Made by a program: the position numbers and the translations under genes
Notes under the pieces: generated by a model
What the model was told of the DNA's origin: nothing
Database searches by the model: none
What the model saw: only the letters and a program-made list of their open reading frames with translations
Source of the DNA: a virus
Lineage: Duplodnaviria > Caudoviricetes
Direction: 5' to 3' (one strand)
Virus record (IMG/VR): IMGVR_UViG_3300033076_001139
Span: 32,001 to 96,000 of that record
DNA: 64,000 nucleotides
Part shown: piece by piece, positions 32,461-48,563 of the stretch
Position numbering within the stretch: the first letter of the stretch is position 1
Layout: each line of letters begins with the position of its first letter

Positions 32461-32472
32461 CCTGAGGCCGTC

Positions 32473-33128: not shown

Positions 33129-33285
33129 CTCCCTGCTTGGACGGTTCACCGCTTCTCCCAGGGAGGCTCCTACTTCCCTCTCGGTTCGTGGGCCAGCCAT
33201 CCTCCCTCAACACGAGGTGAGTGGTTTTCTGAGCATAGACTTTATAACTGTTTTTCGTTTCTTTTAGTCCCAAGAGGAAGGACAC

Positions 33286-33967: not shown

Positions 33968-33968
33968 C

Positions 33969-34517: not shown

Positions 34518-34674
34518 TGGGTTATACTGACTACGGCGGGGGACTCCCTCCATGAAAGTCCTGCCGTAGTCTTTTCCCCCGCCCGCTTGGTCGTTCGCGA
34601 TGCATCATGAGAGACGCAGTAGGCTAGGCCCGCTCTGAGCCAAAATCAGCACCTGTTGGAAGGAGCTGTGCAGA

Positions 34675-34714
34675 GCTAAATAAATGCCGCCGAGGAGCAC
34701 CTCGGCGGCATTTC
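34675..34714 (-). terminator. intrinsic terminator after the ligase
   Basis: aaatgccgccgagg-agca-cctcggcggcattt. Confidence 0.85.
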
Positions 34715-34715
34715 T

Positions 34716-36065
34716 TCATAGGCGCGGGTTCACACACTCCGACACGTGCTTGTCTGTCCGCACGCAGAGGAAGCGTGGGAACCGCAGAGCATTGGTGTCT
34801 CCGCCCTCGGAGATGTACGTTCGGGAGTCGTACTCTACCACGAACACCGCAGGGTAGATGTCCTCGTTACTGAGGGCGCGCAGGTCTGCCTCAGTAAAGC
34901 CGTTACCAACTTCGCTGATGGGCACGAGCGTTCCGTTGTTGTCCAGTTGGTAGAGCTGAACGCTACCGACCAGCTTCTGGTACTTGCCCGTCCCGTAGCT
35001 GCCCTCTCCCTGCCCTGGATGCCAGACGGCGATGAAGTCGTCGCTGAACGTCGGCTTCAGCTTGCCACAAGCCGTACCTGGACGATCCACCTTGCCGCGC
35101 AGGTTGAAGGCCTTGTCGCCGTAAACCCCGTTCGGGTCTACAACGACAAACCCCTCCCACCCGTTCTCGTACGCAGTAGCCGCAACGCAGTTCCAAACAC
35201 GGCCTTTTGTTGCGTTGTACGTGGGAGACTCCTTGGGATCCTCGCACTCAAGGAAGTCGCCCGACGCAAGAACCTCAACCGGCAGGAGAGCGTTGCTGTC
35301 TAGGTTCACCAGCTCAAAGATCAGGTCGTACCGGTCTCTCACTGGACGCGTGCGGCACATGGGCTCTCCGCCAAAGAACGCAATGTCCCAGACATAGAAC
35401 TGGAGAAAGCCCTGCTCTTGCTGAAGGGCCAAGGACTTCTCAGAGAGGGACTTCACGACGCGCGAGACGTACTTGAAGTCATCCTTCTCGGAAGGCGGAA
35501 CCATCTCGCCAAGAAGGATAGTGCGCGGCGGGAGATCCATGTTGGCGATCTCCGCTGCCACTCCAGGGTACCGAACTTCCCAAGGGACGCCCGGTTCCTT
35601 GTCGTGACAACGGAGCATCGTGCGCGAGTAGGCCTGTACCTGCCCCTCGTCGTTCACGACCCAAACCATCATGTCTCCGTCGCGCTTGCGCGCTAGGAAG
35701 GCATCGCCCTTCTCAAGCAGCTTCTCCAGCTTTGCCGACAGGTCGTTGTCCGGTTTGTAGAATCGCAGGGACTCGGGGAGGATGTCCCACGTGAACTCCT
35801 CAGCCCGCTGCGCGGACGGAGGCAGGTAGCCTTCCCGCGTTTTCAGTTCGATCTGCCGTTCGACCATGTCCTGCGCCACCAGCTCGGGAGAGCGGTAGTT
35901 GGACTTGCCCACGTTGACGGCAATTGCCGTGTCCACGACGCGCTGGAACTTACCGCCCAGTTCTCCAAACTCGGTGATTACCTGATCACCGTCTGCGCCA
36001 ATCCGCCAGACGCGCACCTTGCCTGTGCGCGAAATGTTATGCAGTTCCGTCATCGGAGGGTTCAT
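34716..36065 (-). CDS. ATP-dependent DNA ligase with WGR-like N-terminal domain
   Basis: KRDG (motif I), LLGEM, YVWDI, EGFVV, KLKP, LRFPRFL. Confidence 0.92.
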   Translation of the reverse strand: MNPPMTELHNISRTGKVRVWRIGADGDQVITEFGELGGKFQRVVDTAIAVNVGKSNYRSPELVAQDMVERQIELKTREGYLPPSAQRAEEFTWDILPESLRFYKPDNDLSAKLEKLLEKGDAFLARKRDGDMMVWVVNDEGQVQAYSRTMLRCHDKEPGVPWEVRYPGVAAEIANMDLPPRTILLGEMVPPSEKDDFKYVSRVVKSLSEKSLALQQEQGFLQFYVWDIAFFGGEPMCRTRPVRDRYDLIFELVNLDSNALLPVEVLASGDFLECEDPKESPTYNATKGRVWNCVAATAYENGWEGFVVVDPNGVYGDKAFNLRGKVDRPGTACGKLKPTFSDDFIAVWHPGQGEGSYGTGKYQKLVGSVQLYQLDNNGTLVPISEVGNGFTEADLRALSNEDIYPAVFVVEYDSRTYISEGGDTNALRFPRFLCVRTDKHVSECVNPRL

Positions 36066-36276
36066 GCTGATTATCCGTGGTGTTGATGGTGCGCACAAAA
36101 ACAGTCTTCAGAAGGACATTGAGCAGGAGATCGAGGCCTTCGACGCCGCGTTTACGAAGCTTGGAAACGCGCCGTTGGTTCGATCAGAAAAGGCCTTGAT
36201 CCGGACTTTCCTGGTTGCCCGGCTGACAGGGCGCGTATCTTCTCCCCAAGAGGATTCGAAAACATCCGGTCAATGA
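36064..36276 (+). CDS. small hypothetical protein
   Basis: amphipathic helices; back-to-back with the ligase. Confidence 0.5.
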   Translation: MLIIRGVDGAHKNSLQKDIEQEIEAFDAAFTKLGNAPLVRSEKALIRTFLVARLTGRVSSPQEDSKTSGQ

Positions 36277-36646
36277 GGCTGGGCGTGTCCGGAGGCATGT
36301 CCCACTTCTCTGGGCTGAGGACGACGATGGGGAGCGGAAGATTAGGGAAGTTTTCTGGATTGTCCTCATAACCCAGCATTTCTTCCTTGAGTCCACGCAG
36401 CGCCTTTCCTTCCTCGTTTACGTGCCACGCTAGGGCAGTGACGATGTAGCCCTCTCGCTTGCTCTTGAAGCGGAAACAAAGGGCACGGATTTCGTCACCG
36501 TCTACTTCAACGTCTGCAAAACAGAAGTAGCCACGGTGGCCCTGCGTCGAGGGTCCGTAGCCGCAACGCCCGCACTGGTAGACACCAGGGGCGATCTGTG
36601 CCGTGTCGTAACGGCAGATAGGGCAGAAGAGAACGAGCTTATCCAT
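36152..36646 (-). CDS. zinc-ribbon protein
   Basis: CPIC...CGRC; GGAGG RBS; class-A promoter 36662-36689. Confidence 0.75.
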   Translation of the reverse strand: MDKLVLFCPICRYDTAQIAPGVYQCGRCGYGPSTQGHRGYFCFADVEVDGDEIRALCFRFKSKREGYIVTALAWHVNEEGKALRGLKEEMLGYEDNPENFPNLPLPIVVLSPEKWDMPPDTPSLIDRMFSNPLGEKIRALSAGQPGKSGSRPFLIEPTARFQAS

Positions 36647-36718
36647 CTGAGCCTCCGCACTCTTATGGCTAATAAAGAACAAGTCTTTGCGCGCAAGGCG
36701 CAAGACAGCGCCCGAGCC

Positions 36719-37228
36719 TTACAGCCCGAGCACCGCCTTGCGCCTATCCGTCCACTGCATGATCCTCCGCAGGACAAGCGCATACTCGCGCTTGTCCTCC
36801 TTGTTCAGGAGGGCCTGGAGAATTCTCTCCTCGCCCTCCGTGAGGATTGCGGGCTGCTCCTTGGGGAGCGGAAATGCCTCCTCGGTCCGAAGGCGGGAGG
36901 CGGGGCCTACGGGGGCCCCAGCCTTCCCACCCATCTGGGCGATCGTTAGTGGCCAGTCAACGGCGTCAAGCACGCCGTTGACAAACTCGTCCTCCTCCTC
37001 TGTGGCGGGAGTTGTGAGGATGCCGATGATTAGCGCCGCGTCGCGGCGTAGTTTCTCGGAAGCCTCCTCCTTGCGGAGGTGCTGCCGGCAGGCCTCCAGG
37101 CCCGGAGTGACGGCCGCCGCTGCGGCGCGAGGGGCGACAACCCCCGACATGAAGGCCGTGGGGATGGCAGCGCACAGGCTGCCAAAGATAGCAAGGCTGA
37201 TCGGGTCCATGAGATACTCCTTTCTCAT
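36719..37228 (-). CDS. membrane-anchored hypothetical protein
   Basis: class-A promoter 37233-37260; AAGGAG before ATG 37210 (probable true start). Confidence 0.75.
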   Translation of the reverse strand: MRKEYLMDPISLAIFGSLCAAIPTAFMSGVVAPRAAAAAVTPGLEACRQHLRKEEASEKLRRDAALIIGILTTPATEEEDEFVNGVLDAVDWPLTIAQMGGKAGAPVGPASRLRTEEAFPLPKEQPAILTEGEERILQALLNKEDKREYALVLRRIMQWTDRRKAVLGL

Positions 37229-37282
37229 GTATCTTATGACCGATTTTGCCCTTCCTTTTAGACTCTGCTATGGTGGGTGCGC

Positions 37283-40200
37283 ATGATCACGTCCCAAGAA
37301 ATCAACGCGATGATCTCCATGCAGCAGCAACAAGCGGGCTACATGGGGGGCGTCCCCATGGCTGTCCCGATGTCTGGGGCGTCACAATACCCGCCGCAGT
37401 TTAATTATGCCCCACGCCCAATGGGTGCCGCGCAGCTAGGACAGGCCGCAGCGGGCGGCCTTATGAATTCTTTTGGACCAACTGCCGGCGGCATGACCAA
37501 CATGGCCATGAACATCGGCATGGCTGCCGGTGTCGGTGGATGGGCAGCCAATAAAATGGGATTTGCGGGTGCAGGAAACGCGCTAGGTTCCTTGGCGGGT
37601 AATCGATTCCTGACAGGAGTGAGTAACCTAAATCCCATGAACGCAGCGTTCAGTGGGGCGTGGGGCGCAGGAGAGGCAGCAGTTGCTAGTGGTGGCTGGG
37701 GAAGTCTCCTTACTGGGGCAGGTGCCCGGTCTATCGCATTAGGCGCAGCCGAGGGAATTTTAGCCAGTCCGGCCGCTATGATTGGTATTGCAGCAGCACC
37801 AATTGCCATAGGGATGCACCGAGGAGCGCAGCAGTACAGCCAGACCGCCTCGATGCTGGGTGCGTACAATCAGTTTGCAAATCCGTTTGCATCGACAGGG
37901 CGTGGGTTCTCCGAGAACCAGATGTCCTCGATTGTCTCGGGAATGCGCGCGTTACAGGCAAACGACCCGTTCTTGTCTATGCGAGACATGCAGCAGGCAA
38001 TGTCCCGTTTTAACGAAATGGGCATGAATCAGGGGGAACGTGACGCAGAGCAGGTGATGAAGAAATTCACCGCCATGACCAAGAGCATGCAGGCCATGTC
38101 CAAGATGATGGGCACGACCATGGATGAGGCGTCTAAGGTATTTGCCCAGATGCGCGGAGTTGGGTTCTACAGCGGCGCAGACGTCATGCAGAACACCCTG
38201 CTGGGCGGTACGATGCGCGGCCAGGGTATCTCAGGGAATACCATGCTTGGGGCGCAGGCCGCAGGCGGCGGAATTTCGCGTGCAGGAGGTCTCGGTACTA
38301 CGCCAGGAGCCAAGTCCGTTGGTGGGGTCATGGCGATGCTCACCGGAGGTAGGGGAGTTGGTGCCCTGACAAATGAAGAGATGATGAACATCACCGGAGC
38401 TGCTACCCCGGATCAGGCTATCGCACAGCTCAGTACCACGATGGCTGGTAGCCTTACGGGGTTCTACACGCAGACGGGAGTTGGGCAGGCAATGCTCGCT
38501 GCCCTCGGGGAGACCAACGCGCGCGGAGAGTTTACAGGTGGGCTAGACAGCGAGGCGATAGAGGGGCTTCGTACCGGCCGTATCGATATCAACAATCTTG
38601 TGTCTAAGGGACGCGGTAAGGTCTCGACTCGTAATGCCGCCCTTTCCTTCAAGACGCGCGGGCAGGACGTGGCTGGTGCCCTGATCTCGGAGGGAGATCC
38701 CACGGCCGCAATTGGTGCAATTATGCAGAGCGTGGCCGGTGACAAGTTCAGGGACATGGACCCCGAGAACCTCGTCACGCTTCTCACCGAACGTATTCAG
38801 GGTCTAGGCCGCAAAGAGGCCGAGGCCATGACGAAGCTCTACCGAGAAGGGGAGAAGATCCGGCGCGAGTCCCAGCAGCAAATACGTGCCGAAATGCAAG
38901 CAGGTATATTCTCTACTGACATCAGGGAGTACCACTCTCTTGAGGGGTACAAACGTAGAGTGCTCGGCGGGCTTTCTGATCGCTTCACCCCTATATTAGA
39001 GGCCGGACAAGCCCTATCTGTGATGGGCGGCCGGATGACAGAGCGGGCTTCGGATGCCATCTTCGGAGTCACACGCGTGCGCACCGGAAATGACGTTGTG
39101 GACGCTAGACTAGAGAGACTGTCCGAGGGCAGGTTTGACGAAAGCGCAACCGGGGCCGTGGACAAGGGAATGGCCGATACCACGCTTAGTGGTTTGCTGC
39201 GGAGAAGGGACTACGTAGGCGCAACCGCAGAATTTAATAAGACAGACTCACGAGTCCGCGCAGGGAAAAACCTCAATGACCTGTTTGGGAGTCCAGACGC
39301 GGCCGGGAGACAGGTAGTTGCCGGGTCTCTGGGAATGAAGCTTATCAATTATAGTTCTGATATCCGCGCCGGTAAGAGTGCTGCGGACATTGTCCGGGGA
39401 ATGCGGCTAGAAGTTCCAGAGGCAGGAGGTATTGACCAGCTGCTCGGCAGTACAGATACGCTTTCTATTGAGGAGTACCTAGCCGGCGGCGCCGATACCC
39501 TTGGGGGTACCTCGGCGGAGCGACGACAAGCACTAGTAGACGAAGCTATGAGCCTTGGGCGCCCAGAGGTGGCCGCTCTTATTGCCGACATGGGAGTAGG
39601 CAACACAAGGTCGCTGGAGCAAATTAAGTCCTCAGGTACGGATATCCTCAATAAATATGGGTACGTAAACTCGTATACCGCTCGTTCCGGCTACGACAAA
39701 TTGATGGAGTCCGAGAGCCTCGGTGCCGCAGGACGCCTGGGCAAGGCAGGCGTAGACCTAAGTTCCTTCTACAAGATGACGCAGGAAGCTTATGGCGGTG
39801 CCGGCGTAACAAACCAGAGTCAGGGTTACGGCCGTCTGTTGGACGCACTCAGGGCCAAGGGCGTTGATGTGGCGGGTATGACAAAGACCCAACTAGACGC
39901 GCTCATGGAGGTAGCACAGGATACCGGTGCTGGACTCGGGGAAAGCCTAACTGCCGCAGACCTAATGTCGCTGGGCGAGGGGGCAAGTGCCGCGCAGTCT
40001 CAGATGGATCTGGCAAATCTGACCGCAATGGCAACCGCAGCGTCAGAAAGTGCGTACGAAGGCATATCAAACGCGGCCGGAGCAGACGAACTGGCGGCCC
40101 TTGCGGGTTCTAGTACGGAGACTGACGTAGCCAAGAACACGTCGGCCCTGCTTGATACGCTAGAGAAGGCTATTGGGTCCGGCGACCTTACGCTGGGTGA

Positions 40201-40612
40201 CATAGGAAAAGAAGGGTCACGCTACGGTGCCTTCGGAAAGACATTAGCCCAGCTTTTACAGACTCGAAAGTCTATAGCCGCTGTCGGAGCTGGGGAGGTA
40301 TCCGATGCGGATAGAAAGGCATTGCTCGGTATGGGGTTCAGCGAGAAGTACATCAGCAGCCTCGGTACCGACATAGATGGCGGGGAACTCGTAAAGCTAC
40401 AAACAGGTGCAGAGCAGCGGAGGCTCGCGGAGCTTACCGGCGGGGGCACAGCGGGAGCATTTACCGACACAACGCAGGCAGAGGCAGTCAAGTACTACGA
40501 CAGCCTTGCAAAGAGCGTCGTTGTTGTAAATGACCAAGTCCTGCGGATGCAGGACCGCGAACAGGCCTACCAAGCGCAGCGCGCAGCCGCACCCCTCAAG
40601 CCGGAGGAATAA
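37283..40612 (+). CDS. tail tape measure protein
   Basis: about 1110 aa, Ala/Gly/Met-rich helical, upstream of hub genes. Confidence 0.8.
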   Translation: MITSQEINAMISMQQQQAGYMGGVPMAVPMSGASQYPPQFNYAPRPMGAAQLGQAAAGGLMNSFGPTAGGMTNMAMNIGMAAGVGGWAANKMGFAGAGNALGSLAGNRFLTGVSNLNPMNAAFSGAWGAGEAAVASGGWGSLLTGAGARSIALGAAEGILASPAAMIGIAAAPIAIGMHRGAQQYSQTASMLGAYNQFANPFASTGRGFSENQMSSIVSGMRALQANDPFLSMRDMQQAMSRFNEMGMNQGERDAEQVMKKFTAMTKSMQAMSKMMGTTMDEASKVFAQMRGVGFYSGADVMQNTLLGGTMRGQGISGNTMLGAQAAGGGISRAGGLGTTPGAKSVGGVMAMLTGGRGVGALTNEEMMNITGAATPDQAIAQLSTTMAGSLTGFYTQTGVGQAMLAALGETNARGEFTGGLDSEAIEGLRTGRIDINNLVSKGRGKVSTRNAALSFKTRGQDVAGALISEGDPTAAIGAIMQSVAGDKFRDMDPENLVTLLTERIQGLGRKEAEAMTKLYREGEKIRRESQQQIRAEMQAGIFSTDIREYHSLEGYKRRVLGGLSDRFTPILEAGQALSVMGGRMTERASDAIFGVTRVRTGNDVVDARLERLSEGRFDESATGAVDKGMADTTLSGLLRRRDYVGATAEFNKTDSRVRAGKNLNDLFGSPDAAGRQVVAGSLGMKLINYSSDIRAGKSAADIVRGMRLEVPEAGGIDQLLGSTDTLSIEEYLAGGADTLGGTSAERRQALVDEAMSLGRPEVAALIADMGVGNTRSLEQIKSSGTDILNKYGYVNSYTARSGYDKLMESESLGAAGRLGKAGVDLSSFYKMTQEAYGGAGVTNQSQGYGRLLDALRAKGVDVAGMTKTQLDALMEVAQDTGAGLGESLTAADLMSLGEGASAAQSQMDLANLTAMATAASESAYEGISNAAGADELAALAGSSTETDVAKNTSALLDTLEKAIGSGDLTLGDIGKEGSRYGAFGKTLAQLLQTRKSIAAVGAGEVSDADRKALLGMGFSEKYISSLGTDIDGGELVKLQTGAEQRRLAELTGGGTAGAFTDTTQAEAVKYYDSLAKSVVVVNDQVLRMQDREQAYQAQRAAAPLKPEE

Positions 40613-40615
40613 TCT

Positions 40616-40816
40616 ATGAGGTCCCGCGTAGTTTCTGAGGAGGTCACGAACGTAACGGGTGTACGCGTGACTACCGCCGTAGTTACGTACCCAACGGCAG
40701 AAGACGTACTGGGTGTGTTGTCCAGAGCCGTAGCCCGCGAAAAACAAACAGCGCAGTATGCGTACGTATCCCCCTCAAAAGGCGTACGGGACTCTATATT
40801 TAGATTTTCCGAATAG
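40616..40816 (+). CDS. small hypothetical protein
   Basis: GGAGG RBS. Confidence 0.5.
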   Translation: MRSRVVSEEVTNVTGVRVTTAVVTYPTAEDVLGVLSRAVAREKQTAQYAYVSPSKGVRDSIFRFSE

Positions 40817-40825
40817 GAGGCGTGT

Positions 40826-42541
40826 ATGGCTGAGCCAGTTCCCGCAAGTCCGGCTGCGCCTGCCATGGTAGCTACCTGGCCGGAGGTTCTTCCGGGTAGT
40901 TCCGAGAATCTACCGCACTACGAGGCCGCAGAGCCGGTGCGTCGTCCTGTGCGCGGTATCCAGCTCAAGGGCGAGACCTTTGCGCGCATCTCGTTGCCGG
41001 GTCGGTCACTTTACGATTCTTCGGGCCAGCCCCTTGCAGGCCCGGAGGGCGCACAGCGTACTACTGCGGACGGAAAAACCCCTCCCGCAGATAAGTGGCA
41101 GGGTATGTCACATAAGTACGCCAACTTTCTACTCCAGAGTGTCGCAATTGACATGGAGGAGAAGTTCCAACCTGTTCCCACATTTGGCCTGACTTACGGC
41201 TTCTTCTTTGGGGAGCGACCCCATATCTACTCTTTCAACGCGGTACTGGTAGACAGTGGAGACTTCCGTTGGGTCAGCGACTGGCTTGGAAACTACGAAG
41301 ATAAGCTGCGTGGCACTAAACTGGCAATGGCAAATACGCCCGTTACTGTGGAGTTTGAGGACCACAAAATCGAGGGGTACATTATCCGCTCGGTACTAAA
41401 TAAGGATGCCTCCACACCTCTCTACATGCAGTTATCCTTTAGCCTCTGGGTAATACGCCACGAAACCCCGGAGCACGAGGCAGGAGATACGCGTTTCCCT
41501 TATAGTGCTGGCGGTACGCCGGTAGTTCACCGTCTTCCTTTCAGTACGACTGATGCGGTGCGTAGGGCCAACATTGACCTACTCAAGAAGTCACAGAACC
41601 CGGGATGGCTACGCAAGATCATTAATCAGGTATCCGAGCTAAAGAATAAATACGACAGCGTTGTCCAAGGGGTTGAGAACTTCCTGTACAATCGCAATAT
41701 TGTTCCGGCTAACCAATATGTCAACGCAGCTACAATAGCGGCGGAGCAAGGCACGTTAGCAGCAATTCTGGCAGGACAGAGCTACACTGTCACGTTCAAG
41801 AAGCCGCCTTACTACGCACACGAGCAGGGAGGATTTATCTTCCAGAACCGCGACGAGTACATGCTGGGCGGTTGGATTGACGCCTTAGAATCGTATGGTT
41901 CAGCTGACCCGACGAAACTAAAACTTGCAGACGGTAGGTCTGTAACCGCTGCGGCGCTTGTCGCTGAAGCAGAGGCCGCCTGGGCGGCGCAGGTAGAGAA
42001 GCAGCCGGTAACCCTGAGTTCTGAGTCCCTCCTTGAGAAAATTGGTAGGACGGTGCTTTCCCGTGCCGCCCTCTACGCAACTCAAGTACTGCTTCAAGAG
42101 GACGGAATTGTAGCAATCACGAGTGGTAGCGTAGAAGGGACCATGCTTGGGCAGTCGGACAAGCTTCAGTTCACGAAGGACATACTGCTCCCCTCCCTGC
42201 ACACCCTTGAAACCATCGCAGTAGACGCAGTGGGCGCGCGCACCCTGACAGACCGACTTCGTACGCAGGCGCAGAGCAGGGAACAGCTAGAGCGACAGAA
42301 CGCAGCTTCTCAAGCAGCCCGTATGGCCGCGTCCTCGGAGCTAAGCCGCACGTCCAGACTACAGGCCTTACAGAACGCGGCTAACGCCATCATCGGTACC
42401 ACGACTTCCTCGGCGGTCGCCGACGCCGCGTTACAAGAGCAGCTTACCGCAACACGGGCAGAAGAACGTAGACAGCAGCAGGACGCGGCTTCAGAAAGAG
42501 ACGCGCAGCGGCAGGCCTTGTTACGTGCCTTCGCATCATGA
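40826..42541 (+). CDS. putative tail tube initiator/baseplate protein
   Basis: NFLLQSV...EKFQ---TFG---FFFGERP-IY-F N-terminal domain; synteny. Confidence 0.6.
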   Translation: MAEPVPASPAAPAMVATWPEVLPGSSENLPHYEAAEPVRRPVRGIQLKGETFARISLPGRSLYDSSGQPLAGPEGAQRTTADGKTPPADKWQGMSHKYANFLLQSVAIDMEEKFQPVPTFGLTYGFFFGERPHIYSFNAVLVDSGDFRWVSDWLGNYEDKLRGTKLAMANTPVTVEFEDHKIEGYIIRSVLNKDASTPLYMQLSFSLWVIRHETPEHEAGDTRFPYSAGGTPVVHRLPFSTTDAVRRANIDLLKKSQNPGWLRKIINQVSELKNKYDSVVQGVENFLYNRNIVPANQYVNAATIAAEQGTLAAILAGQSYTVTFKKPPYYAHEQGGFIFQNRDEYMLGGWIDALESYGSADPTKLKLADGRSVTAAALVAEAEAAWAAQVEKQPVTLSSESLLEKIGRTVLSRAALYATQVLLQEDGIVAITSGSVEGTMLGQSDKLQFTKDILLPSLHTLETIAVDAVGARTLTDRLRTQAQSREQLERQNAASQAARMAASSELSRTSRLQALQNAANAIIGTTTSSAVADAALQEQLTATRAEERRQQQDAASERDAQRQALLRAFAS

Positions 42542-44214
42542 GTTCACGTACCCTCGGCGAAGCACAAGTTCTTGGACTCCGGCTCTTTCTAGAAGGGCTG
42601 GAAGTCCCCGTCATATCAGCGACGGTTGACATCAACGAGGGCGCAGCAGCGGTCGCACAGATCGAGATTGTCGGTCTTGACTCTGCAATGAAGTTCAAGC
42701 CTCGGACTATGGTTCACCTGTTCTTTTTTGACGGCGCAGACTACAAGTACGGACCACAAACCGTAAAGAAAACAACAGACGCTCGCAGAACGGACCCTTC
42801 GGACCCTTTTTCCCCGATGGTGCCGTCTAAGACGGAAACTACTCGCAGAACATTAGACGACCGGTACCGTCTGTTGTTCATGGGTGAGCTGTTCTCATAT
42901 ACCTATCAAAAGGCGGGAAGCGGGGCGAGATCCGTCATCCTGAACTGTATCGACTTCAGCAACTACTGGGACACCTCGTTTATCTTTCAGGTAACCGGAG
43001 AAGAGAGTCTTCTGGACGTCCCGCAGATCCAGCCGTTCATCACCGGATCTGACGCCTTCGCAAGCAATCTTGTGGAGGGAAACGTAGGCCTGCTGATTAC
43101 GCAGCTCAAGGCGCAGACACAACTCTCGCAATCGGTATTGCCGGGGGACGGCAGCGTACAATTCCTTTCCTCCCTAGTCGGCATACTAGAGATGCTCGGA
43201 GGTGTGTCAGTCCTCGATGACTCCAAGCCTCCGGACCCTAAAGACCCGAAAAGCACGTATACGCGTTATAGCGTCCACGGAGGCCTCACCCCGTGGCATA
43301 CGCTATCCGAGCGGCGGGTACGCTTGCTCGACCAAATCGCAACAGACGACGGAAAGACAGCCTCGAATATGTTCGAGCAAGAAAAGTTTGAGCAGTTCCT
43401 AAAGCGCCAGAGTGATTTGACCAGTTCTGTCCTCAGCTTTCGGGATATTCTCAACCTGTTGTTAGGACATATCTACTACGCTACTTTCCCAAACCCCTGC
43501 GGGCGTCTGTTGACCGGAGAGCCGTTTACGCCGAAACCTATGGACGCGGGACCTACAAGTAACTGGGCCGCACCTGCCTATGTGTTTCCGACCAACCTCT
43601 CTGTAGACCCTAGGTACTTGGCTCCAGGCCTTACAACCGCAGATGCGTTGCAAGCATCTAGGGAACTATATGCTACGTCTACCCCGGCTCAGGTAGCCCA
43701 AGAGCTATCCAAGAATTTCACGTTTGACGAGCTTACAAACTCCGGCAAGCACAAAAACCTTGTCGCACAAAACCGAGTAGAGGCACTACAGGTTTACAAC
43801 TTCCTGCGGGATCTTTGCCTCTACATCCTAGAGCCGCTCCTTGAGAAATTCCCCAAACTGTCTGTAACCTCAGGATTTAGGGGACCCGAACTTAACGCCG
43901 CAGTCGGGGGGTCCGACGGCTCTCAGCACAAACTAGGGCAGGCGGCAGACCTAGACTTCGGTAGCGCGCAGGCCAACTGGGAAGCGTACAAGTATCTAGC
44001 ATTCGCGCCCCATAGTATCCCTTTTGGGCAGGTTATTTTCGAGAAGCAAGGGGGGCGTCCTTGGGTGCACGTGAGCCTCGGACAGCCGTGGTTTCACCTG
44101 TCTAATGACGTGCGGAGAAGCGTACCTAACCCCAGCACAGGCAAACTCGACTGCCCGCCCGCTCCCCCAAGCTGGAACGCACAAACTCCCCTCCCGCCCG
44201 AGTATGCAGGATGA
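42538..44214 (+). CDS. baseplate hub N-terminal part fused to peptidase M15A
   Basis: LRLFLEG-EVPV hub-like start; VTSGFR-PELNAAVGG---SQH--GQAAD...WVHVS. Confidence 0.8.
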   Translation: MSSRTLGEAQVLGLRLFLEGLEVPVISATVDINEGAAAVAQIEIVGLDSAMKFKPRTMVHLFFFDGADYKYGPQTVKKTTDARRTDPSDPFSPMVPSKTETTRRTLDDRYRLLFMGELFSYTYQKAGSGARSVILNCIDFSNYWDTSFIFQVTGEESLLDVPQIQPFITGSDAFASNLVEGNVGLLITQLKAQTQLSQSVLPGDGSVQFLSSLVGILEMLGGVSVLDDSKPPDPKDPKSTYTRYSVHGGLTPWHTLSERRVRLLDQIATDDGKTASNMFEQEKFEQFLKRQSDLTSSVLSFRDILNLLLGHIYYATFPNPCGRLLTGEPFTPKPMDAGPTSNWAAPAYVFPTNLSVDPRYLAPGLTTADALQASRELYATSTPAQVAQELSKNFTFDELTNSGKHKNLVAQNRVEALQVYNFLRDLCLYILEPLLEKFPKLSVTSGFRGPELNAAVGGSDGSQHKLGQAADLDFGSAQANWEAYKYLAFAPHSIPFGQVIFEKQGGRPWVHVSLGQPWFHLSNDVRRSVPNPSTGKLDCPPAPPSWNAQTPLPPEYAG

Positions 44215-45980
44215 CCACGCGCTCTCGTCTCATCACTACGGTATTTCGACCTGACGTGTGGTTTGTAATGCCACCGGCATGCAACGTTGTGTTCCCGGAG
44301 GAGTGCACGAATGTGTCGTATTCACGTCAGATGATGCGTGAAACGACTCGCCTAGAGCTACAGACATTCACGGGCATCCTTAAGACCTCAGGATCGCAGG
44401 TAGACGAAGAACTCATTCAGCAGTACTACTTTGCCCCTGCTCTTGTAGGCGCGGACGGCAGACCCACCCTGCCGGATAAGTTGGGCAAGCCCCAAGAGGA
44501 CGAGAAGGAGGCTGCCCCGCTTACGAACATCATGTACCTCCATGAGAAGTTCACGGGCATCATCCCGAAGATCGAGAGAATCTCGGATACTGCCTTCTAC
44601 GCAGCACTGGAGGCAAACGAGGCACAGGGTGCTACCTCTGTGACACGCGAATCGGAAGTAGCGACAATTGAGCAGTACGCCCAGCGTGTGGCACTGTTTA
44701 ACTTCCTACGCAACCGATACATGGCCAGGCAGGCGAGTGTGTCAGGTAGATTTATGCCACGCCTGGTTGCTGGGTTTCCGGCACTAGTTGTAAATCGACC
44801 AAAAGAAACGGATACCGACGACCCCACGCACTTTGTGGGAATGATCACGAACATTTCGCACACTTTGAACCAAGACGGCGGTACTACTTCTTTTGCGTTG
44901 TCCTACGCGCGCCCTCACACGATTGCAAGCGAGGAGGAGTCATTTCTTCAGTTCCTGCAATCTCTAGAGGAGAACGTACCAGCGATTGATAAATTGATTA
45001 CCTACGGAACCTCTGCGGAGAACACTGCGGACATTGTGCGGATTAATAAGCAACTTCAGGCACTTTCTGCCAAGCTTATAGCAGAAGGAAAAGACCCGAT
45101 TGCTGAGCTATACATCCCGCTATCTCAGGGAGACTATTTTGGGCCTGCGGGGTACGACCCTACGTTGATTCAGGCCAACCTACATCCTACGGCATTCAGC
45201 GCGACTATCGTACTTATGCGCGGAGCCGGCGCAGACTTAGACACCCCCGCTACCGTAGAGGCCCTGTTTGCGGAAGAGCCCTCGGATGCGATGCTTCAAT
45301 TCGCCTTTAGGGCGTACCTTCAGACGGACGATACTGGGCCTGAACCAGAAACCCCAGAGGCGTACGCTAAGCGAAATAACCTGCCTTCGGTTCAGTCTCC
45401 GGTACCTTGGCTTAAGTCTGCGGACGGGAATACCTACCCAATTGTTGTAGCCGTGTACATCAAGCAAGACGCCAGTACGGTAAAGAAGTCGTTTGAGGAG
45501 ATCATGACTCCTCCATGGTTTTCAGACACGTACAAGAACTCTGCTATTGGAAACTACTACCGCAGGCTGCTGGGCTGTGACTCAATGAGTGGACAATTTG
45601 GCGGCGACAGTAGCTCCGTAGAAGCCGCCGCTATCGCTGCCGTTGAGGCATACTCTGGGCTGGATAACGTCAAGTCCAACGCCGGAGACCCGCAGTTTGT
45701 CTACCTCAACACCAAACGAGAGATTCCAACCCAAGCGCAGGTACTAGAGTTTCACCGTTTTGCCTCGGCAGACGCTGGAAAGAGTCCGCTCTACGGGCTG
45801 GATGAGTCGGGCGGTGGTGTCACCGAGGGCAATGAAGGCCATATCGCCCGGAACCGTGTATCTACCGCAGATACGCTAGAACTTGTCGGCGCGGGCTCTC
45901 TAGATCCTCGACAAGAGCGGTATACTGCCGTAAAGTCGTACCACGATCAGCTACTAGGCCGACGGGCCTTTAGAGGTTAA
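44211..45980 (+). CDS. baseplate hub C-terminal-like protein
   Basis: G-FMP-LVAGFP-LV...G-I-NISHT-NQ-GG-T pattern; ATGA coupling. Confidence 0.65.
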   Translation: MTTRSRLITTVFRPDVWFVMPPACNVVFPEECTNVSYSRQMMRETTRLELQTFTGILKTSGSQVDEELIQQYYFAPALVGADGRPTLPDKLGKPQEDEKEAAPLTNIMYLHEKFTGIIPKIERISDTAFYAALEANEAQGATSVTRESEVATIEQYAQRVALFNFLRNRYMARQASVSGRFMPRLVAGFPALVVNRPKETDTDDPTHFVGMITNISHTLNQDGGTTSFALSYARPHTIASEEESFLQFLQSLEENVPAIDKLITYGTSAENTADIVRINKQLQALSAKLIAEGKDPIAELYIPLSQGDYFGPAGYDPTLIQANLHPTAFSATIVLMRGAGADLDTPATVEALFAEEPSDAMLQFAFRAYLQTDDTGPEPETPEAYAKRNNLPSVQSPVPWLKSADGNTYPIVVAVYIKQDASTVKKSFEEIMTPPWFSDTYKNSAIGNYYRRLLGCDSMSGQFGGDSSSVEAAAIAAVEAYSGLDNVKSNAGDPQFVYLNTKREIPTQAQVLEFHRFASADAGKSPLYGLDESGGGVTEGNEGHIARNRVSTADTLELVGAGSLDPRQERYTAVKSYHDQLLGRRAFRG

Positions 45981-45982: not shown

Positions 45983-47242
45983 ATGGCCGAGTTTCCTCAG
46001 ATCCAGGCACCGTCCTTCAAGCTCTCTGATGAGAGCAAGGAGCGGCTGCGTAAGGTAGACACTGTGCGGCCCTACGCACACCGTGCTGCTATCTTTGGCC
46101 TGCCGGCGATGGCTTCGGCAAACTACATGCTTCCGCAGATGAAGCGCCGTGGGCTAGCTGTGGGGGCTATTGGGGCTGCGGGCGCTGGCCTGGGGCTGAT
46201 GGATCGCAAGATCGAGCAGCTTGCGGAAGAGCACGAGGAGCTGCGCCCTACTCTTAAGAACTACTCAAAAGGTACCCCCTCTTCTGGAATATCTATGTCG
46301 GCTAAAACTGCTTCCGTGTCTGATCGTGTCCGTCGTAATCAGGACGAGCTGGCGGCTGCTTTCCCGATGACAATGGCTCAACGGGTAGAGCTTCAGAAAG
46401 AGGCCCTCTTGCTGGACCCTAAGACAACGGCGAAAGCTACCGGACAGGCCTTGTCCTTTATGCGCGGTGCAAAGCCTACGCTGATTGGCGCAGGCGTGGG
46501 AGCCGTAGGGGGTGCCGCAGCTGATGGCGAGAACCGGGGCCGCGGAGCACTGACTGGCGCGCTCGTCGGCGGTGCTCTTGGCGGGGGAGCAACTGCCCTA
46601 ACGCGCGCGTACACCCCTGAGCTTCGGGCGGGCATGACTGCCGCTAACCGAGCTGCAATTAGGGGCGGTAAGCCTGTAGGCGCAGCCGACTACACCAAGA
46701 CCTTCAAAGAGGGCTTCAAGAACTACAAGCCTCCCGTTGCGCCTGAAGGCACCGCGAGCACAGCAGCGGTACAAAAACAGACAAGACGCAGTAGAAAGGC
46801 GACTTCTCCGGTTCAACAGCCGGTAACCCAGCCCGCAGTGCAGTCGACTCCTACCCAGACAGCGCAAGAACTGGGGGATATGCGGACGCGTGAGAAAACC
46901 CAATCTGCGCCTGCCTCCTCACTGCGGCATCGTCTACACCAAATGACCTCAAAGGAGGCAGGCATCAACACGATGCATGACGCACACCGCGCAATTGGGG
47001 GACGGCCTCCATACGCCCTCCTCACGATGGGCGGGGAAACCTCGAATGATGCGGTCATAAATCAAATGCTGCGCGCCCTTTTCGCGAACACTGACGCGAT
47101 GCGTAAGGCTACCGAGGATCAAGTCCTCGCAGCCTTCCCGCTATCGGCCCCGTATTCGTACGGGCGTCATCGCGCGATTGGCCGCACAGCGGACGACATT
47201 AAAGCAGAGATTGCGCTGGCTTATACACCTACGCAGAGGTAA
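45983..47242 (+). CDS. putative virion internal protein with KTAS/KEA motifs and glycine-zipper segments
   Basis: AKTAS, QKEAL, SKEAG; GAGVGAVGG / GALVGGALGG. Confidence 0.65.
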   Translation: MAEFPQIQAPSFKLSDESKERLRKVDTVRPYAHRAAIFGLPAMASANYMLPQMKRRGLAVGAIGAAGAGLGLMDRKIEQLAEEHEELRPTLKNYSKGTPSSGISMSAKTASVSDRVRRNQDELAAAFPMTMAQRVELQKEALLLDPKTTAKATGQALSFMRGAKPTLIGAGVGAVGGAAADGENRGRGALTGALVGGALGGGATALTRAYTPELRAGMTAANRAAIRGGKPVGAADYTKTFKEGFKNYKPPVAPEGTASTAAVQKQTRRSRKATSPVQQPVTQPAVQSTPTQTAQELGDMRTREKTQSAPASSLRHRLHQMTSKEAGINTMHDAHRAIGGRPPYALLTMGGETSNDAVINQMLRALFANTDAMRKATEDQVLAAFPLSAPYSYGRHRAIGRTADDIKAEIALAYTPTQR

Positions 47243-47244
47243 GC

Positions 47245-48018
47245 GTGTCACTCCGCGACGCACTCGAGCAGATGCTCGACAAAGCAGCGGCGGCAGGTCC
47301 TGAACGGGCCGGTCGCCGACAGAAGGAACTTGAGCTTTGGAAGACGTGGAAGGACTCCAACCACGATCCAGAGCACCTGGATCCTTTGCTGACTTCGTTG
47401 CAGCCGTTGATGACGCAGCACGTGAATCGGTACGCAGGGAACGTACCCATCTCACGCCCCGCATTAGAGAATGAGGTCACCCGGCTGACCGTCCGTGCGC
47501 TCAAGAGCTACAAGCCCGACCGGGGTGCCCAGCTCAGTACGTTCGTGACAGGCCAGCTCAAGGGCATCAACCGCTTCGTGACGCAGCACCAAAACGTGTC
47601 GCGCATCACGGAGGAACGGTCGCAGAAGATCGGTCGTTACCAGCGCGCGCACACCGCGCTGAACGAGTCCCTTGGTCGCCCGCCCACGGCACAGGAAGTT
47701 GCCGACGAAATGAAGGTCTCCGTGCGTATGGTCAATCGCCTCTCGCAAGAGATGCGGTCTGACCTTCTGGGCTCCGGCTCAGAGCACGACCCATTCTTGG
47801 ACGAAGAGCCCAAATCCCGCGAAGTGCTGCGGCTGATGTACCCGTACGCCTTCTCACCTGATGAGCAGAAGGTGTTTGAATACCTTCTCGGCCTTAACGG
47901 CAAGGAGAAGGAACTGAAGACGGGCAAGATTGCTCGTGCGTTGGGCTGGTCGGACTCCAAGGTCAGCCAGACTCGCGCTGCAATTGCGAACAAGGTTAAA
48001 CCGTACCTCAATGGGTAA
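47245..48018 (+). CDS. RNA polymerase sigma factor, FliA/WhiG (sigma28)-like
   Basis: region 2 ALKSYKPDRGAQLSTF; region 3 LGRPPTAQEVADEM; region 4 IARALGWSDSKVSQ. Confidence 0.9.
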   Translation: MSLRDALEQMLDKAAAAGPERAGRRQKELELWKTWKDSNHDPEHLDPLLTSLQPLMTQHVNRYAGNVPISRPALENEVTRLTVRALKSYKPDRGAQLSTFVTGQLKGINRFVTQHQNVSRITEERSQKIGRYQRAHTALNESLGRPPTAQEVADEMKVSVRMVNRLSQEMRSDLLGSGSEHDPFLDEEPKSREVLRLMYPYAFSPDEQKVFEYLLGLNGKEKELKTGKIARALGWSDSKVSQTRAAIANKVKPYLNG

Positions 48019-48235
48019 GTGGAAAAACGGTGCGCCGCTTGATGCGAACGGTTCTACGACCGGGCGCGAAGGGCTGCGCACCGCGATTCGCACCTACATC
48101 GATGATGCACGAAAGGTGTTGGAGAAGGACAGGGATTACCTTGTGGAATATTCCAAACGACTTTCAAACCGTGACATCCTTGAAAAGGACATGTCGCAAC
48201 TGACGGCCGACGAATTGGACAAGATACTGTCCTGA
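48011..48235 (+). CDS. small hypothetical protein
   Basis: overlaps the sigma stop; ends DELDKILS. Confidence 0.65.
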   Translation: MGKWKNGAPLDANGSTTGREGLRTAIRTYIDDARKVLEKDRDYLVEYSKRLSNRDILEKDMSQLTADELDKILS

Positions 48236-48314
48236 CGAAGAGCGAGGGCAGCTAGGTGCTGCCTTCCTTTTAGCTGGGTGTGCTTGTATCCTGCGAGGTG
48301 CGCAGGAGGCGCAC

Positions 48315-48539
48315 ATGTCAATCGAGTTCAAGTGTGACAACATAGCGTTCTCAGCGTTCTTGTTGTCGCGTGGGGTGCCGACTAGTTCGCACTTCCAACG
48401 CGGCCGCAAGATCGTCTGGGTTTTCAACATCAATCAGGAGGATCTAGCTCAGGCCCAGGCCGACTGGCCGCAGTCCGCGGAATGTCGGTTCTTCAACAGC
48501 TACCTCACCCTAAAATCTCATCTTCGCGAAAGGGCTTGA
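48315..48539 (+). CDS. DUF5659-like protein
   Basis: D--FSAFL---G.....GR---WVF; AGGAGG RBS. Confidence 0.7.
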   Translation: MSIEFKCDNIAFSAFLLSRGVPTSSHFQRGRKIVWVFNINQEDLAQAQADWPQSAECRFFNSYLTLKSHLRERA

Positions 48540-48563
48540 CGCTAGATGATCCGCGTGTATAGT
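48536..48563 (+). promoter_or_regulatory. sigma70-type promoter
   Basis: TTGACG-N16-TATAGT ahead of 48674. Confidence 0.7.

What the first reader, a model, noticed from the sequence alone, without database searches (positions are those of the whole stretch)
45983..48018. Phage sigma28-like factor in the virion gene block: candidate virion-delivered sigma that drives early transcription
Seen: ORF 47245-48018 has sigma70-family regions 2, 3 and 4, and its recognition helix reads GWSDSKVSQ. It starts 2 nt after a KTAS/KEA-motif protein in the tape measure/hub operon. Its N-terminus (LRDALEQMLDKAAA) resembles the F-x-x-E-L-x-K-x-A motif of other ORFs here. Known: FliA/WhiG sigmas carry GVSESRVSQ in region 4.2 and read TAAA-N15-GCCGATAA. 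Inference: this sigma reads the class-A promoters. Those promoters serve short accessory (early-type) genes, while structural genes have host sigma70-type promoters, the reverse of the usual phage order. A sigma made late, packaged, and injected to redirect host core RNA polymerase would explain this.
Basis: partly seen in the sequence, partly recalled or inferred. Interest (0 to 1): 0.9.

Follow-up and report, generated by a model that had tools for sequence, protein, structure and literature searches.

The report
Phage sigma factor for its own polymerase
A large uncultured phage encodes a real flagellar-type sigma factor inside its tail-gene operon; it most likely steers the phage's own single-chain bacterial-type RNA polymerase, not the host's, and both are probably carried in the virus particle to start infection.

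Summary
ORF 47245-48018 is a full three-domain sigma-70-family protein, closest to FliA/WhiG/SigD. It starts 2 nt after a glycine-zipper protein, near the end of a tail operon conserved in all 20 relatives examined.

The same 151-kb phage contig encodes a 2066-aa fused beta-beta' RNA polymerase, with no alpha subunit found. Sigma and beta-beta' co-occur: 17 of 20 sigma-bearing records and 17 of 22 polymerase-bearing records carry both, as do 16 of the 17 records that are at least 90% complete. The sigma therefore most likely partners the phage enzyme rather than host core polymerase.

The cAAA-N15/16-GNCATAAG motif is real. GTCATAAG is the most over-represented 8-mer in the genome (15 copies, 1.75 expected), and all copies lie on the strand opposite sigma and beta-beta'. 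Thirteen relatives show the same strand bias.

Packaging is inferred, not shown. In the distant cultured relative Salmonella phage Arash, published virion mass spectrometry found sigma, beta and beta' at about 2 spectra per residue each, but those particles were only sucrose-purified.

The claim that host sigma-70 promoters drive the structural genes is not supported statistically. This scan had already noted the sigma, the promoters and the polymerase on this genome.

The parts
47245..48018 (+). Sigma factor gene, 257 aa, divergent group-3 (FliA/WhiG/SigD-like) sigma-70-family protein
   Evidence: Pfam Sigma70_r3 above cut-off. PHROG 351 at E 3e-14. NCBIfam best hits are the FliA/WhiG models, far below cut-off. 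Best PDB sequence hit is 6pfv (S. venezuelae WhiG complex). Top Foldseek hit is the SigD model 9a7s_A. 43 metagenomic homologues found.
47245..47292 (+). N-terminal leader of sigma (residues 1-16, S-L-R-D-A-L-E-Q-M-L-D-K-A-A-A), followed by a variable linker before the sigma core
   Evidence: An L-R-x-x-L-E-K-x-A-A type motif is conserved at the N-terminus of homologues, followed by a hypervariable Pro-rich linker. Positional match to the genome's other leaders is 16/34 against 2.7 expected. The motif is absent from Arash gp10.
47317..47598 (+). Sigma domain 2 (core binding, -10 recognition), about residues 25-118
   Evidence: Helices 3-37, 42-63, 71-88, 97-115 in the model. Aligns with WhiG residues 17-115. 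Pfam Sigma70_r2 itself does not hit.
47611..47754 (+). Sigma domain 3, about residues 123-170
   Evidence: Pfam Sigma70_r3 covers residues 128-167. The strongly conserved Q-H-Q-N-x-S-R-I-x-E motif (three invariant columns) lies just before it.
47812..48012 (+). Sigma domain 4 with helix-turn-helix; recognition helix G-W-S-D-S-K-V-S-Q at 47944-47970
   Evidence: Helices 190-198, 205-215, 226-233, 237-256. Aligns with WhiG L-G-V-T-E-S-R-V-S-Q. S236, V240 and S241 are nearly invariant.
45983..47242 (+). 419-aa glycine-zipper protein with K-T-A-S and K-E-A-G sites, translationally coupled to sigma; poorly conserved
   Evidence: Pfam Gly-zipper_YMGG and Rick_17kDa_Anti hits, both below cut-off. Only L016 has a detectable homologue. 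Relatives carry other small leader-bearing genes at this position.
37277..45980 (+). Upstream genes of the same operon: 1111-aa tape-measure-like protein, 571-aa protein, 558-aa hub N-terminal part with M15 peptidase, 589-aa hub C-terminal part
   Evidence: Gene order and strand are largely conserved across the 20 related loci (p589 found upstream of sigma in all 20). Weak homology to Arash gp6 and gp8, which were detected in virions. Peptidase_M15_3 and PHROG endolysin hits. The 558- and 589-aa proteins are one protein of about 1100-1300 aa in relatives.
48011..48235 (+). 74-aa ORF overlapping the sigma stop codon (ATGGGTAA); function unknown
   Evidence: Read directly from the sequence. No homologue in the related loci.
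48244..48266 (+). Intrinsic-terminator-like hairpin followed by CTTTTAG; probable end of the operon that contains sigma
   Evidence: 9-bp stem with 6 GC pairs.
48536..48563 (+). Best sigma-70-like promoter candidate (TTGACG-16-TATAGT), upstream of the 713-aa gene at 48674
   Evidence: 10 of 12 consensus matches. The regional count of such sites is not above chance.
2507..37260 (-). Block of minus-strand genes (small ORFs, 12 tRNAs, ATP-dependent DNA ligase) headed by cAAA-N15/16-G(T/C/G)CATAAG promoters; the twelve strict sites have their low ends at 2507, 4381, 5767, 6087, 10280, 11223, 12449, 13128, 19896, 20393, 25353 and 37233
   Evidence: for the motif. tRNAs. Ligase. Sigma-70-like sites are not enriched here: 6 against 9.2 expected.

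Best explanation
The ORF encodes the promoter-specificity subunit of the phage's own transcription machine. That machine is a two-polypeptide holoenzyme: this FliA/WhiG-like sigma plus a single-chain, bacterial-type beta-beta' RNA polymerase. The polymerase is 2066 aa, lies at genome 128051-134251 (32 kb past the window end), and no alpha subunit was found.

The holoenzyme reads the cAAA-N15/16-GNCATAAG promoters that head essentially every transcription unit on the strand opposite the virion genes: small early ORFs, tRNAs, ligase and the polymerase/replication block.

Both subunit genes lie in virion-gene operons on the other strand, sigma after the tail hub and beta-beta' after the portal. 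Neither has such a promoter. The enzyme made late in one infection is therefore most likely packed into the particle and injected with the DNA to start host-independent early transcription in the next cell, as N4 and phiKZ do with their virion polymerases.

Shown here: sigma identity and fold; presence and integrity of beta-beta'; clade-wide co-occurrence and synteny; the reality and strand restriction of the motif.

Inferred: that this sigma binds the phage enzyme; that it reads this motif; that it is packaged (by homology with Arash particle proteomics); and that the conserved N-terminal leader has a role in targeting or processing.
For: Sigma identity.

Phage polymerase: Pfam Rpb2_6 at 6e-61, Rpb1_2 at 6e-27, Rpb1_5; NCBIfam rpoC at 1.5e-163 and rpoB at 8e-103. 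The catalytic NADHDGD motif is present. The beta' segment that aligns to E. coli beta' 166-516 covers the clamp-helix sigma-docking region. No alpha subunit was found.

Co-occurrence: 17 of 20 sigma-bearing IMG/VR records have one beta-beta' gene, including 4 of 4 that are at least 90% complete; the three without are 22-61% complete. Conversely, 17 of 22 long beta-beta' records have the sigma, including 12 of 13 that are at least 90% complete. Sigma and beta-beta' identities to the window copies fall together across records.

Synteny: the block tape-measure-like / p571 / hub / sigma / p226 / p300 / p2106 lies on one strand in 20 loci, with sigma identities down to 32%. Arash has the same layout.

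Motif: top 8-mer in the genome, all copies on the minus strand. GGCATAAG occurs 10 times against 0.54 expected, all on one strand, in G001. Thirteen records show strong strand bias, always opposite sigma and beta-beta'. The -35 and -10 details differ between the GWSxSKVSQ and KMDxSKVAK sigma subclades.

No alternative start-up route seen: sigma-70-like sites are not enriched in the early block or upstream of beta-beta'. There is no second sigma in the contig.

Packaging: in Arash, beta had 3516 spectra over 1525 aa, beta' 1210 over 606 aa and sigma 467 over 234 aa, i.e. 2.3, 2.0 and 2.0 per residue. Ribonucleotide reductase alpha had 0.87 and dNMP kinase 0.59. Sigma had 24 unique peptides, against 30 for the major capsid protein (PMC10585845).
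Against: There is no direct evidence for this phage. Arash shares only about 33% identity with this sigma, its polymerase is split into two genes, and its sigma lacks the leader.

Arash particles were purified only on a sucrose gradient, and 116 proteins were called 'structural'. The authors themselves allow that abundant infection proteins carried over.

The exact motif is not found in Arash or in about half of the more distant records.

It is unknown what transcribes the plus-strand virion genes, including sigma and beta-beta'.

The contig is 81% complete, so a second sigma, an alpha-like subunit or a host-type early promoter could lie in the missing part. One complete record with beta-beta' (G034) has no detectable sigma.

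Promoter-sigma covariation is modest and rests on seven genomes.
Confidence: 0.55

Rival explanations
1. The sigma and the phage polymerase work together on the GNCATAAG promoters but are not packaged. Host RNA polymerase, or an unrecognised promoter class, first transcribes the plus-strand operons. The phage holoenzyme then accumulates and switches on the minus-strand genes as a middle class. Under this reading, the Arash proteomics signal is carry-over of very abundant infection proteins.
For: Arash particles were only sucrose-purified, and clearly non-structural enzymes were also detected. One strong sigma-70-like promoter exists on the plus strand at 48536-48563, and a weaker TTGCCC-17-TATGGT lies at about 37245. 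The Arash sigma lacks the leader.
Against: Replication and nucleotide-metabolism genes would then depend on products of tail and head operons, an order not known for lytic phages. No sigma-70-like site lies upstream of beta-beta', and such sites show no enrichment anywhere. Sigma, beta and beta' are near-equimolar in Arash particles and 2-4 times higher per residue than the metabolic enzymes.
Confidence: 0.25
2. One reading: the sigma is packaged and injected, but it binds host core RNA polymerase and redirects it to the class-A promoters.
For: The sigma keeps a recognisable core-binding region 2 and is of a bacterial type. Phage sigmas that use host core are well known (T4 gp55, SPO1 gp28; my own knowledge; see also PMC7824862).
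Against: The phage has its own complete catalytic beta-beta'. It co-occurs with the sigma in 16 of 17 near-complete genomes and is the most abundant protein in Arash particles. In the survey of PMC7824862, jumbo phages carry either a sigma or a polymerase, the sigma-only ones being those thought to use host core.
Confidence: 0.1
3. The class-A promoters are read by the host's own FliA-type sigma, or by the phage polymerase with another factor. The phage sigma would then serve a different gene set, for example the plus-strand late genes.
For: The promoter architecture is close to that of sigma-28. No promoter has yet been identified for the plus-strand genes. Two relatives carry a second sigma paralogue.
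Against: The -10 box GNCATAAG differs from GCCGATAA and is conserved with the phage sigma across hosts of very different GC content (52-63%). No recurrent motif that this sigma could read was found upstream of plus-strand operons. Dependence on a host flagellar sigma would tie infection to motile hosts.
Confidence: 0.05

Closest known systems
FliA / WhiG / SigD (sigma-28, group 3 sigma-70 family) and their TAAA-N15-GCCGATAA promoters
   Same: Three-domain architecture of about 250 aa without region 1.1. It is the best-ranking family in NCBIfam (23 of 24 homologues), in the PDB sequence search (WhiG) and in the fold search (SigD). The region 4.2 helix G-W-S-D-S-K-V-S-Q resembles WhiG G-V-T-E-S-R-V-S-Q. 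The promoter has an AAA box 15-16 nt upstream of a G-rich/ATAA box.
   Different: Scores are far below every curated cut-off (39.6 vs 189.6 bits for TIGR02479). It carries an N-terminal leader and a variable linker. The -10 box is GNCATAAG, not GCCGATAA. It is encoded by a phage next to tail genes, and its likely partner is a phage polymerase lacking alpha (no omega search was run).
Virion RNA polymerases of phiKZ/AR9-type jumbo phages (multisubunit, split beta/beta') and of N4 (single-subunit)
   Same: A polymerase encoded among late/virion genes, found in particles and proposed to transcribe early genes without host polymerase (PMC7598289, PMC4666361 abstracts). In this clade, particle detection exists only for Arash.
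   Different: phiKZ-type enzymes are very divergent, split into 4-5 polypeptides, come as two sets (virion and non-virion), and no sigma-70-family factor occurs in those phages (PMC7824862). Here there is one fused, clearly bacterial-like beta-beta' (rpoC model at E 1.5e-163) plus a genuine sigma-70-family factor. N4 vRNAP is a T7-like single-subunit enzyme.
Salmonella phage Arash gp10 / gp206 / gp216 (PMC10585845)
   Same: Homologous sigma (33% identity) at the same position after the hub/cell-wall hydrolase gene. Homologous polymerase. Same two-strand genome layout.
   Different: The Arash polymerase is split into a 1525-aa and a 606-aa gene. Its sigma lacks the N-terminal leader. The exact TAAA-N15/16-GYCATAA pattern is absent. 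The paper only lists the proteins and does not analyse promoters or the sigma-polymerase pairing.
Phage sigma factors that redirect host core polymerase (T4 gp55, SPO1 gp28/gp33-34, sigma factors of T4-like jumbo phages)
   Same: A phage-encoded sigma-70-family protein that defines a phage-specific promoter class.
   Different: Those phages encode no polymerase and the sigmas are not virion components (my own knowledge; PMC7824862). Here the sigma always travels with a phage beta-beta'.
Fused beta-beta' (rpoBC) of Helicobacter and Wolbachia
   Same: A single open reading frame joining beta to beta'. The best NCBIfam models are the fused-type PRK09603 and PRK14844.
   Different: The cellular fusions are about 2850-2900 aa and work with alpha and omega. 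The phage protein is 2066 aa, and its match to the rpoB and rpoC models begins about 250 and 140 positions into them.

Membership tests
Sigma-70 family | Domain 3 (region 3) recognisable by profile | tested here: met
   Pfam PF04539 scores 30.4 bits against a cut-off of 25.3. It is the only such hit in the genome.
Sigma-70 family | Domain 2 (regions 2.1-2.4) recognisable by profile | tested here: inconclusive
   Pfam PF04542 gives no hit even at E 1. However, phmmer aligns residues 16-166 to WhiG and 61-226 to RpoS, and the model superposes on full-length sigmas.
Sigma-70 family | Domain 4 with a helix-turn-helix for the -35 box | tested here: inconclusive
   No Pfam region-4 model reaches its cut-off: the PF04545 hit of 17.9 bits (cut-off 24.1) falls on the domain-3 HTH at residues 144-166, and only generic HTH models hit 205-246. 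The model shows a helix-turn-helix at residues 226-256, and the WhiG region 4.2 alignment is.
FliA/WhiG subfamily (TIGR02479) | Score above the curated subfamily cut-off | tested here: not met
   39.6 bits against a cut-off of 189.6. It is the best-ranked family for 23 of 24 homologues, but all score far below the cut-off. So it works like sigma-28 but is not a member by the curated criterion.
FliA/WhiG subfamily (TIGR02479) | Cognate promoter TAAA-N15-GCCGATAA | tested here: inconclusive
   The associated motif is cAAA-N15/16-GNCATAAG. The architecture is the same and the -10 box differs. That this sigma reads the motif is inferred, not shown.
Virion-packaged RNA polymerase systems (N4, phiKZ type) | Polymerase subunits physically present in purified particles | not testable with these tools
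   Only indirect: the Arash homologues were detected at about 2 spectra per residue each in sucrose-purified particles (PMC10585845).
Virion-packaged RNA polymerase systems (N4, phiKZ type) | Genes embedded in late/virion operons rather than early ones | tested here: met
   Sigma lies in the tape-measure/hub operon in all 20 relatives. Beta-beta' follows the portal and precedes head genes. Neither has a class-A promoter on its own strand.
Virion-packaged RNA polymerase systems (N4, phiKZ type) | Early transcription independent of host polymerase and of new protein synthesis | not testable with these tools
   Needs infection experiments.
Capsid-targeting / processing leaders (T4 internal-protein type) | Short N-terminal peptide shared by otherwise unrelated packaged proteins | tested here: inconclusive
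   Seven ORFs share A-F-x-x-E-L-E-K-(L/I)-A ending at residues 17-23. Relatives carry such leaders on genes next to sigma. Sigma N-termini match positionally as a family (16/34 against 2.7 expected), but the window's own sigma scores poorly.
Capsid-targeting / processing leaders (T4 internal-protein type) | Cleavage by a prohead protease | not testable with these tools
   No S78 or S77 protease domain was found in the 81%-complete contig. Arash gp10 was covered 100%, but it has no leader.

The most novel reading that the evidence does not exclude
A widespread clade of 150-210-kb phages (at least 484 beta-beta'-encoding stretches in IMG/VR) packages a minimal, bacterial-type holoenzyme into the virion and injects it. 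The holoenzyme is one fused beta-beta' chain plus one sigma-70-family factor, with no alpha subunit found. All early and replication genes would then be transcribed from sigma-28-like promoters without any host polymerase. A shared N-terminal L-E-K-x-A leader would mark the sigma and other cargo for incorporation or processing. This would be the first virion-delivered sigma factor and the simplest known sigma-dependent multisubunit-type polymerase.
Probability: 0.45. Interest if true: 0.85.

Novelty: new variant of a known kind. Interest (0 to 1): 0.7.

Why it matters
Known virion RNA polymerases are either T7-like single-subunit enzymes (N4) or highly divergent split enzymes that lack a sigma factor (phiKZ, AR9). 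Known phage sigma factors hijack host core polymerase. Here a genuine sigma-70-family factor appears wedded to a phage-encoded, clearly bacterial-like, single-chain beta-beta'.

If the pair is active without alpha and omega, it is a naturally minimised sigma-dependent polymerase. That would be useful for studying holoenzyme assembly, promoter recognition by group-3 sigmas and orthogonal transcription. If the pair is packaged, it shows that a sigma factor can be a virion cargo.

The clade is large, environmental and has cultured members (Arash, Vibrio phages D69, D148 and D181), so the idea is directly testable.

Tried and rejected
- **Near-identical phage records:** a megablast of 20 kb against 50,697 phage records found nothing.
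- **Annotation of the large neighbouring proteins:** PHROGs and Pfam gave no hits for the 1111-, 571-, 589-, 713-, 449- and 2106-aa proteins.
- **A second sigma:** Pfam r2, r3 and r4_2 searches of the contig found only this ORF. They also hit a 256-aa minus-strand HTH_17/MerR-like protein (genome 145401-146171), which is not a sigma.
- **A plus-strand 'late' motif:** CTCTGCTA looked recurrent upstream of four operons but is not enriched or strand-specific genome-wide. I dropped it.
- **Host sigma-70 promoters for structural genes:** counts equal chance.
- **Leader HMM:** it retrieves only its seven training ORFs and not the window's sigma, so I do not claim that this sigma carries 'the' leader. 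I claim only that the sigma family's N-terminus resembles it.
- **Exact TAAA-N15/16-GYCATAA in relatives:** found in only 5 of 13 records. The looser GNCATAAG with strand bias was more informative.
- **Prohead protease search:** negative.
- **Literature:** four full-text searches found no paper describing a sigma-dependent virion polymerase or this fused phage beta-beta' beyond the Arash listing. Subscription journals are not covered.
- **Single-protein scan for beta-beta' relatives:** it found only one close contig. An eight-sequence alignment was needed to reach the clade.
Full report
**1. What is at the coordinates**

The window is bases 32001-96000 of a 151,105-bp IMG/VR viral contig estimated 81% complete.

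ORF 47245-48018 (+) starts at a GTG six bases after a GAGG, 2 nt after the stop of ORF 45983-47242, and encodes 257 aa.
- It reaches the Pfam gathering score for Sigma70_r3 and matches PHROG 351, 'RNA polymerase sigma factor', at E 3e-14.
- Pfam region 2 does not hit and region 4 is sub-threshold.
- phmmer aligns residues 16-166 to the S. venezuelae WhiG chain of 6pfv/6pfj and residues 61-226 to RpoS.
- An AlphaFold2 model built on 24 homologues (pLDDT 82.9) aligns over essentially its full length to sigma factors. The B. subtilis SigD model 9a7s_A ranks first; SigA, sigma-S and SigB follow, and WhiG also appears.
- NCBIfam ranks the two FliA/WhiG models first for this protein. TIGR02479 matches 23 of 24 homologues, more than any other family. 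All scores are far below the curated cut-offs.

It is therefore a genuine but divergent group-3-like sigma. It works like sigma-28 but is not a member by the curated criterion. G-W-S-D-S-K-V-S-Q is residues 234-242 in the last helix and aligns with WhiG G-V-T-E-S-R-V-S-Q.

**2. Context**

The sigma is the penultimate gene of a plus-strand operon running from 37277 to a terminator at 48244-48266. The operon holds, in order:
- a 1111-aa tape-measure-like protein;
- a 571-aa protein;
- a 558-aa protein with an M15 peptidase;
- a 589-aa protein;
- the 419-aa glycine-zipper protein;
- sigma;
- a 74-aa overlapping ORF.

In 20 related IMG/VR loci (sigma identity 32-48%) the same gene order and strand are largely kept (the 589-aa hub part in all 20). 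In relatives the 558- and 589-aa proteins are a single protein of about 1100-1300 aa.

The distant cultured relative Salmonella phage Arash has the same layout: gp4, gp6, gp8 cell-wall hydrolase, gp10 sigma, gp13.

**3. The decisive point outside the window**

The same contig encodes a 2066-aa open reading frame (genome 128051-134251) that is a fused beta-beta' RNA polymerase.
- Pfam: Rpb2_6 at 6e-61, Rpb1_2 at 6e-27, plus Rpb1_5.
- NCBIfam: rpoC at 1.5e-163 and rpoB at 8e-103. The best models are the fused Helicobacter and Wolbachia types.
- The catalytic NADHDGD motif is intact.
- The beta' part aligns with E. coli beta' 166-516, which includes the clamp helices where sigma domain 2 docks (the docking role is established knowledge).
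- No alpha subunit domain is present.

Co-occurrence across the clade:

| Starting set | Records carrying both genes | Among records at least 90% complete |
|---|---|---|
| 20 records with the sigma | 17 (one beta-beta' gene each) | 4 of 4 |
| 22 long records found through a beta-beta' alignment | 17 | 12 of 13 |

- The three sigma-bearing records without beta-beta' are 22-61% complete.
- At least 484 IMG/VR stretches encode relatives of the fused polymerase.
- Sigma and beta-beta' identities to the window copies decline together across records.

The parsimonious reading is a dedicated sigma/beta-beta' pair, not a sigma that hijacks host core polymerase.

**4. The promoters**

- GTCATAAG is the most over-represented 8-mer in the genome: 15 copies against 1.75 expected, all on the minus strand.
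- G[TGC]CATAAG gives 31 sites, 29 of them on the minus strand.
- A strict two-box pattern gives 12 minus-strand and 0 plus-strand hits, against about 1.1 per strand in shuffles.
- Aligned sites show C-A-A-A ending 15-16 nt upstream of the G of GNCATAAG. This is the architecture of sigma-28 promoters (TAAA-N15-GCCGATAA, my own knowledge), with a different -10 box.
- In the window the sites head the small ORFs, the unit that includes the DNA ligase gene, and lie around the tRNA array. Outside the window, one site (genome 122674) heads the minus-strand block that contains the DNA polymerase gene. The set is therefore wider than 'accessory' genes.
- Thirteen related records show a strong one-strand bias of GNCATAAG, always on the strand opposite sigma and beta-beta'. 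The more distant records and Arash show no such bias for this exact word.
- The sigma family splits into two subclades by region 4.2: G-W-S-x-S-K-V-S-Q and K-M-D-x-S-K-V-A-K. In the second subclade the -10 box is almost always GGCATAAG and the -35 reads aGCAAnT rather than cAAAa. This is modest covariation in seven genomes.

**5. Is it delivered by the virion?**

Arguments for:
- Both subunit genes sit in virion operons, and this is conserved throughout the clade.
- Neither gene has a class-A promoter on its own strand.
- Sigma-70-type sites are not enriched in the early block (6 against 9.2 expected) and are absent upstream of beta-beta'. No start-up route through host polymerase is visible.
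- In Arash, particle proteomics found beta as the most abundant protein, with sigma at 100% coverage (PMC10585845). Dividing by gene lengths from the record:

| Arash protein | Spectra | Length (aa) | Spectra per residue | Unique peptides |
|---|---|---|---|---|
| beta (gp206) | 3516 | 1525 | 2.3 | 128 |
| beta' (gp216) | 1210 | 606 | 2.0 | 40 |
| sigma (gp10) | 467 | 234 | 2.0 | 24 |
| major capsid protein (gp226) | 1333 | 307 | 4.3 | 30 |
| ribonucleotide reductase alpha (gp27) | 663 | 764 | 0.87 | 11 |
| dNMP kinase (gp19) | 116 | 197 | 0.59 | 5 |

Arguments against:
- The Arash particles were only sucrose-purified, 116 proteins were listed, and the authors note possible carry-over.
- Arash is distant from this phage, and nothing has been measured for the window's phage itself.

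I put packaging at roughly 55-60%.

**6. The leader**

Seven unrelated ORFs in this genome carry A-F-x-x-E-L-E-K-(L/I)-A ending at residues 17-23. In relatives, small genes immediately upstream of sigma begin the same way.

Sigma homologues conserve an N-terminal L-R-x-x-L-E-K-x-A-A type motif. It is followed by a hypervariable Pro-rich linker and, in many homologues, F-P-x-x-W before the sigma core.
- A profile of the seven leaders does not rank the window's own sigma.
- A PSSM from the same leaders puts its best site in the first 30 residues of 16 of 34 full-length sigma homologues (2.7 expected, shuffle maximum 7). These homologues are related, so this counts as one family-level observation.
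- Arash gp10 lacks the leader.
- No prohead protease domain was found.

A targeting or processing role is a hypothesis only.

**7. What remains open**

- The promoter class and the polymerase for the plus-strand virion genes are unidentified. One good sigma-70-like site lies at 48536-48563 and a weaker one near 37245, but counts equal chance.
- Two relatives have a second sigma paralogue, and one complete record has none detectable.
- 19% of this genome is missing.

**8. Literature**

Full-text searches and the jumbo-phage survey PMC7824862 describe phages with a polymerase and no sigma (phiKZ group), and phages with a sigma and no polymerase (T4-like group). Apart from the protein list in the Arash paper, I found no description of a sigma-dependent, bacterial-type phage polymerase or of a virion-borne sigma. 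Subscription journals are not covered by the library.

**9. Relation to earlier notes of this scan**

Other readers and one follow-up on this same genome had already noted the promoters, the fused polymerase, the leaders and the sigma itself. I reached the polymerase and the motif before opening those notes, and I re-tested each point independently. They agree with this report.

**10. Verdict**

It needs correction on its central mechanistic point, because the partner is the phage's own beta-beta' and not host core. The claim about sigma-70 promoters is unsupported. I class this as a new variant of known kinds (virion polymerase plus phage sigma), with interest 0.7.

Noticed in passing
genome 128020-128050 (window-equivalent 96020-96050, just past the window end); also L050, L059, L070, L114 and others: A class-A-type promoter lies divergently 20-110 nt upstream of the beta-beta' start codon in this genome and in most of 20 relatives. 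Seen on the polymerase strand, it reads CTTATGAC, CTTATGCC, CTTATACC or CTTATCCC. Holoenzyme bound there would sit on the 5' end of its own gene, so autoregulation is possible.
   Followed up: partly
IMG/VR records G039 (112487-113197) and G040 (10662-11315): Two relatives carry a second, much more divergent paralogue of the sigma (E 5e-16 and 1.5e-10 against the family profile). It may serve another promoter class.
   Followed up: no
G011, G020, Vibrio phages D181 and D148: The fused beta-beta' gene is interrupted or enlarged in some relatives. G011 has a 2469-aa frame, G020 is split with an insert, and the Vibrio phages have a homing endonuclease annotated inside the gene. This suggests intein- or intron-type insertions.
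   Followed up: no
protein P0037 (sigma homologue, 355 aa): One homologue has a glycine-zipper insert of about 75 aa between the N-terminal leader and a K-T-A-A-K-D-P site that aligns with the K-L-A-A-K-D-P of its relatives. This echoes the glycine-zipper protein encoded just upstream of sigma in the window.
   Followed up: no
window 42538-45980: The 558-aa and 589-aa proteins correspond to one protein of about 1100-1300 aa in relatives. Here the hub-like protein is split right after an M15 peptidase domain.
   Followed up: partly
window 1-37400, minus strand: Intrinsic-terminator-like hairpins are enriched (32 against 17.7 expected, and 25 against 15.6). Many end in the same tail, TTTTCTTTAG or CTTTTAG, often directly upstream of the next class-A promoter, giving compact terminator-promoter cassettes.
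   Followed up: no
genome 127039-127979 (between portal and beta-beta'), minus strand: A small minus-strand island of Cys-rich ORFs (104 aa and 194 aa, with CxxC pairs) sits inside the plus-strand head block. It is driven by the divergent class-A promoter.
   Followed up: no
window 48315-48539: A 74-aa ORF just after the operon terminator is conserved directly downstream of sigma in seven relatives (36-44% identity). Its function is unknown.
   Followed up: no
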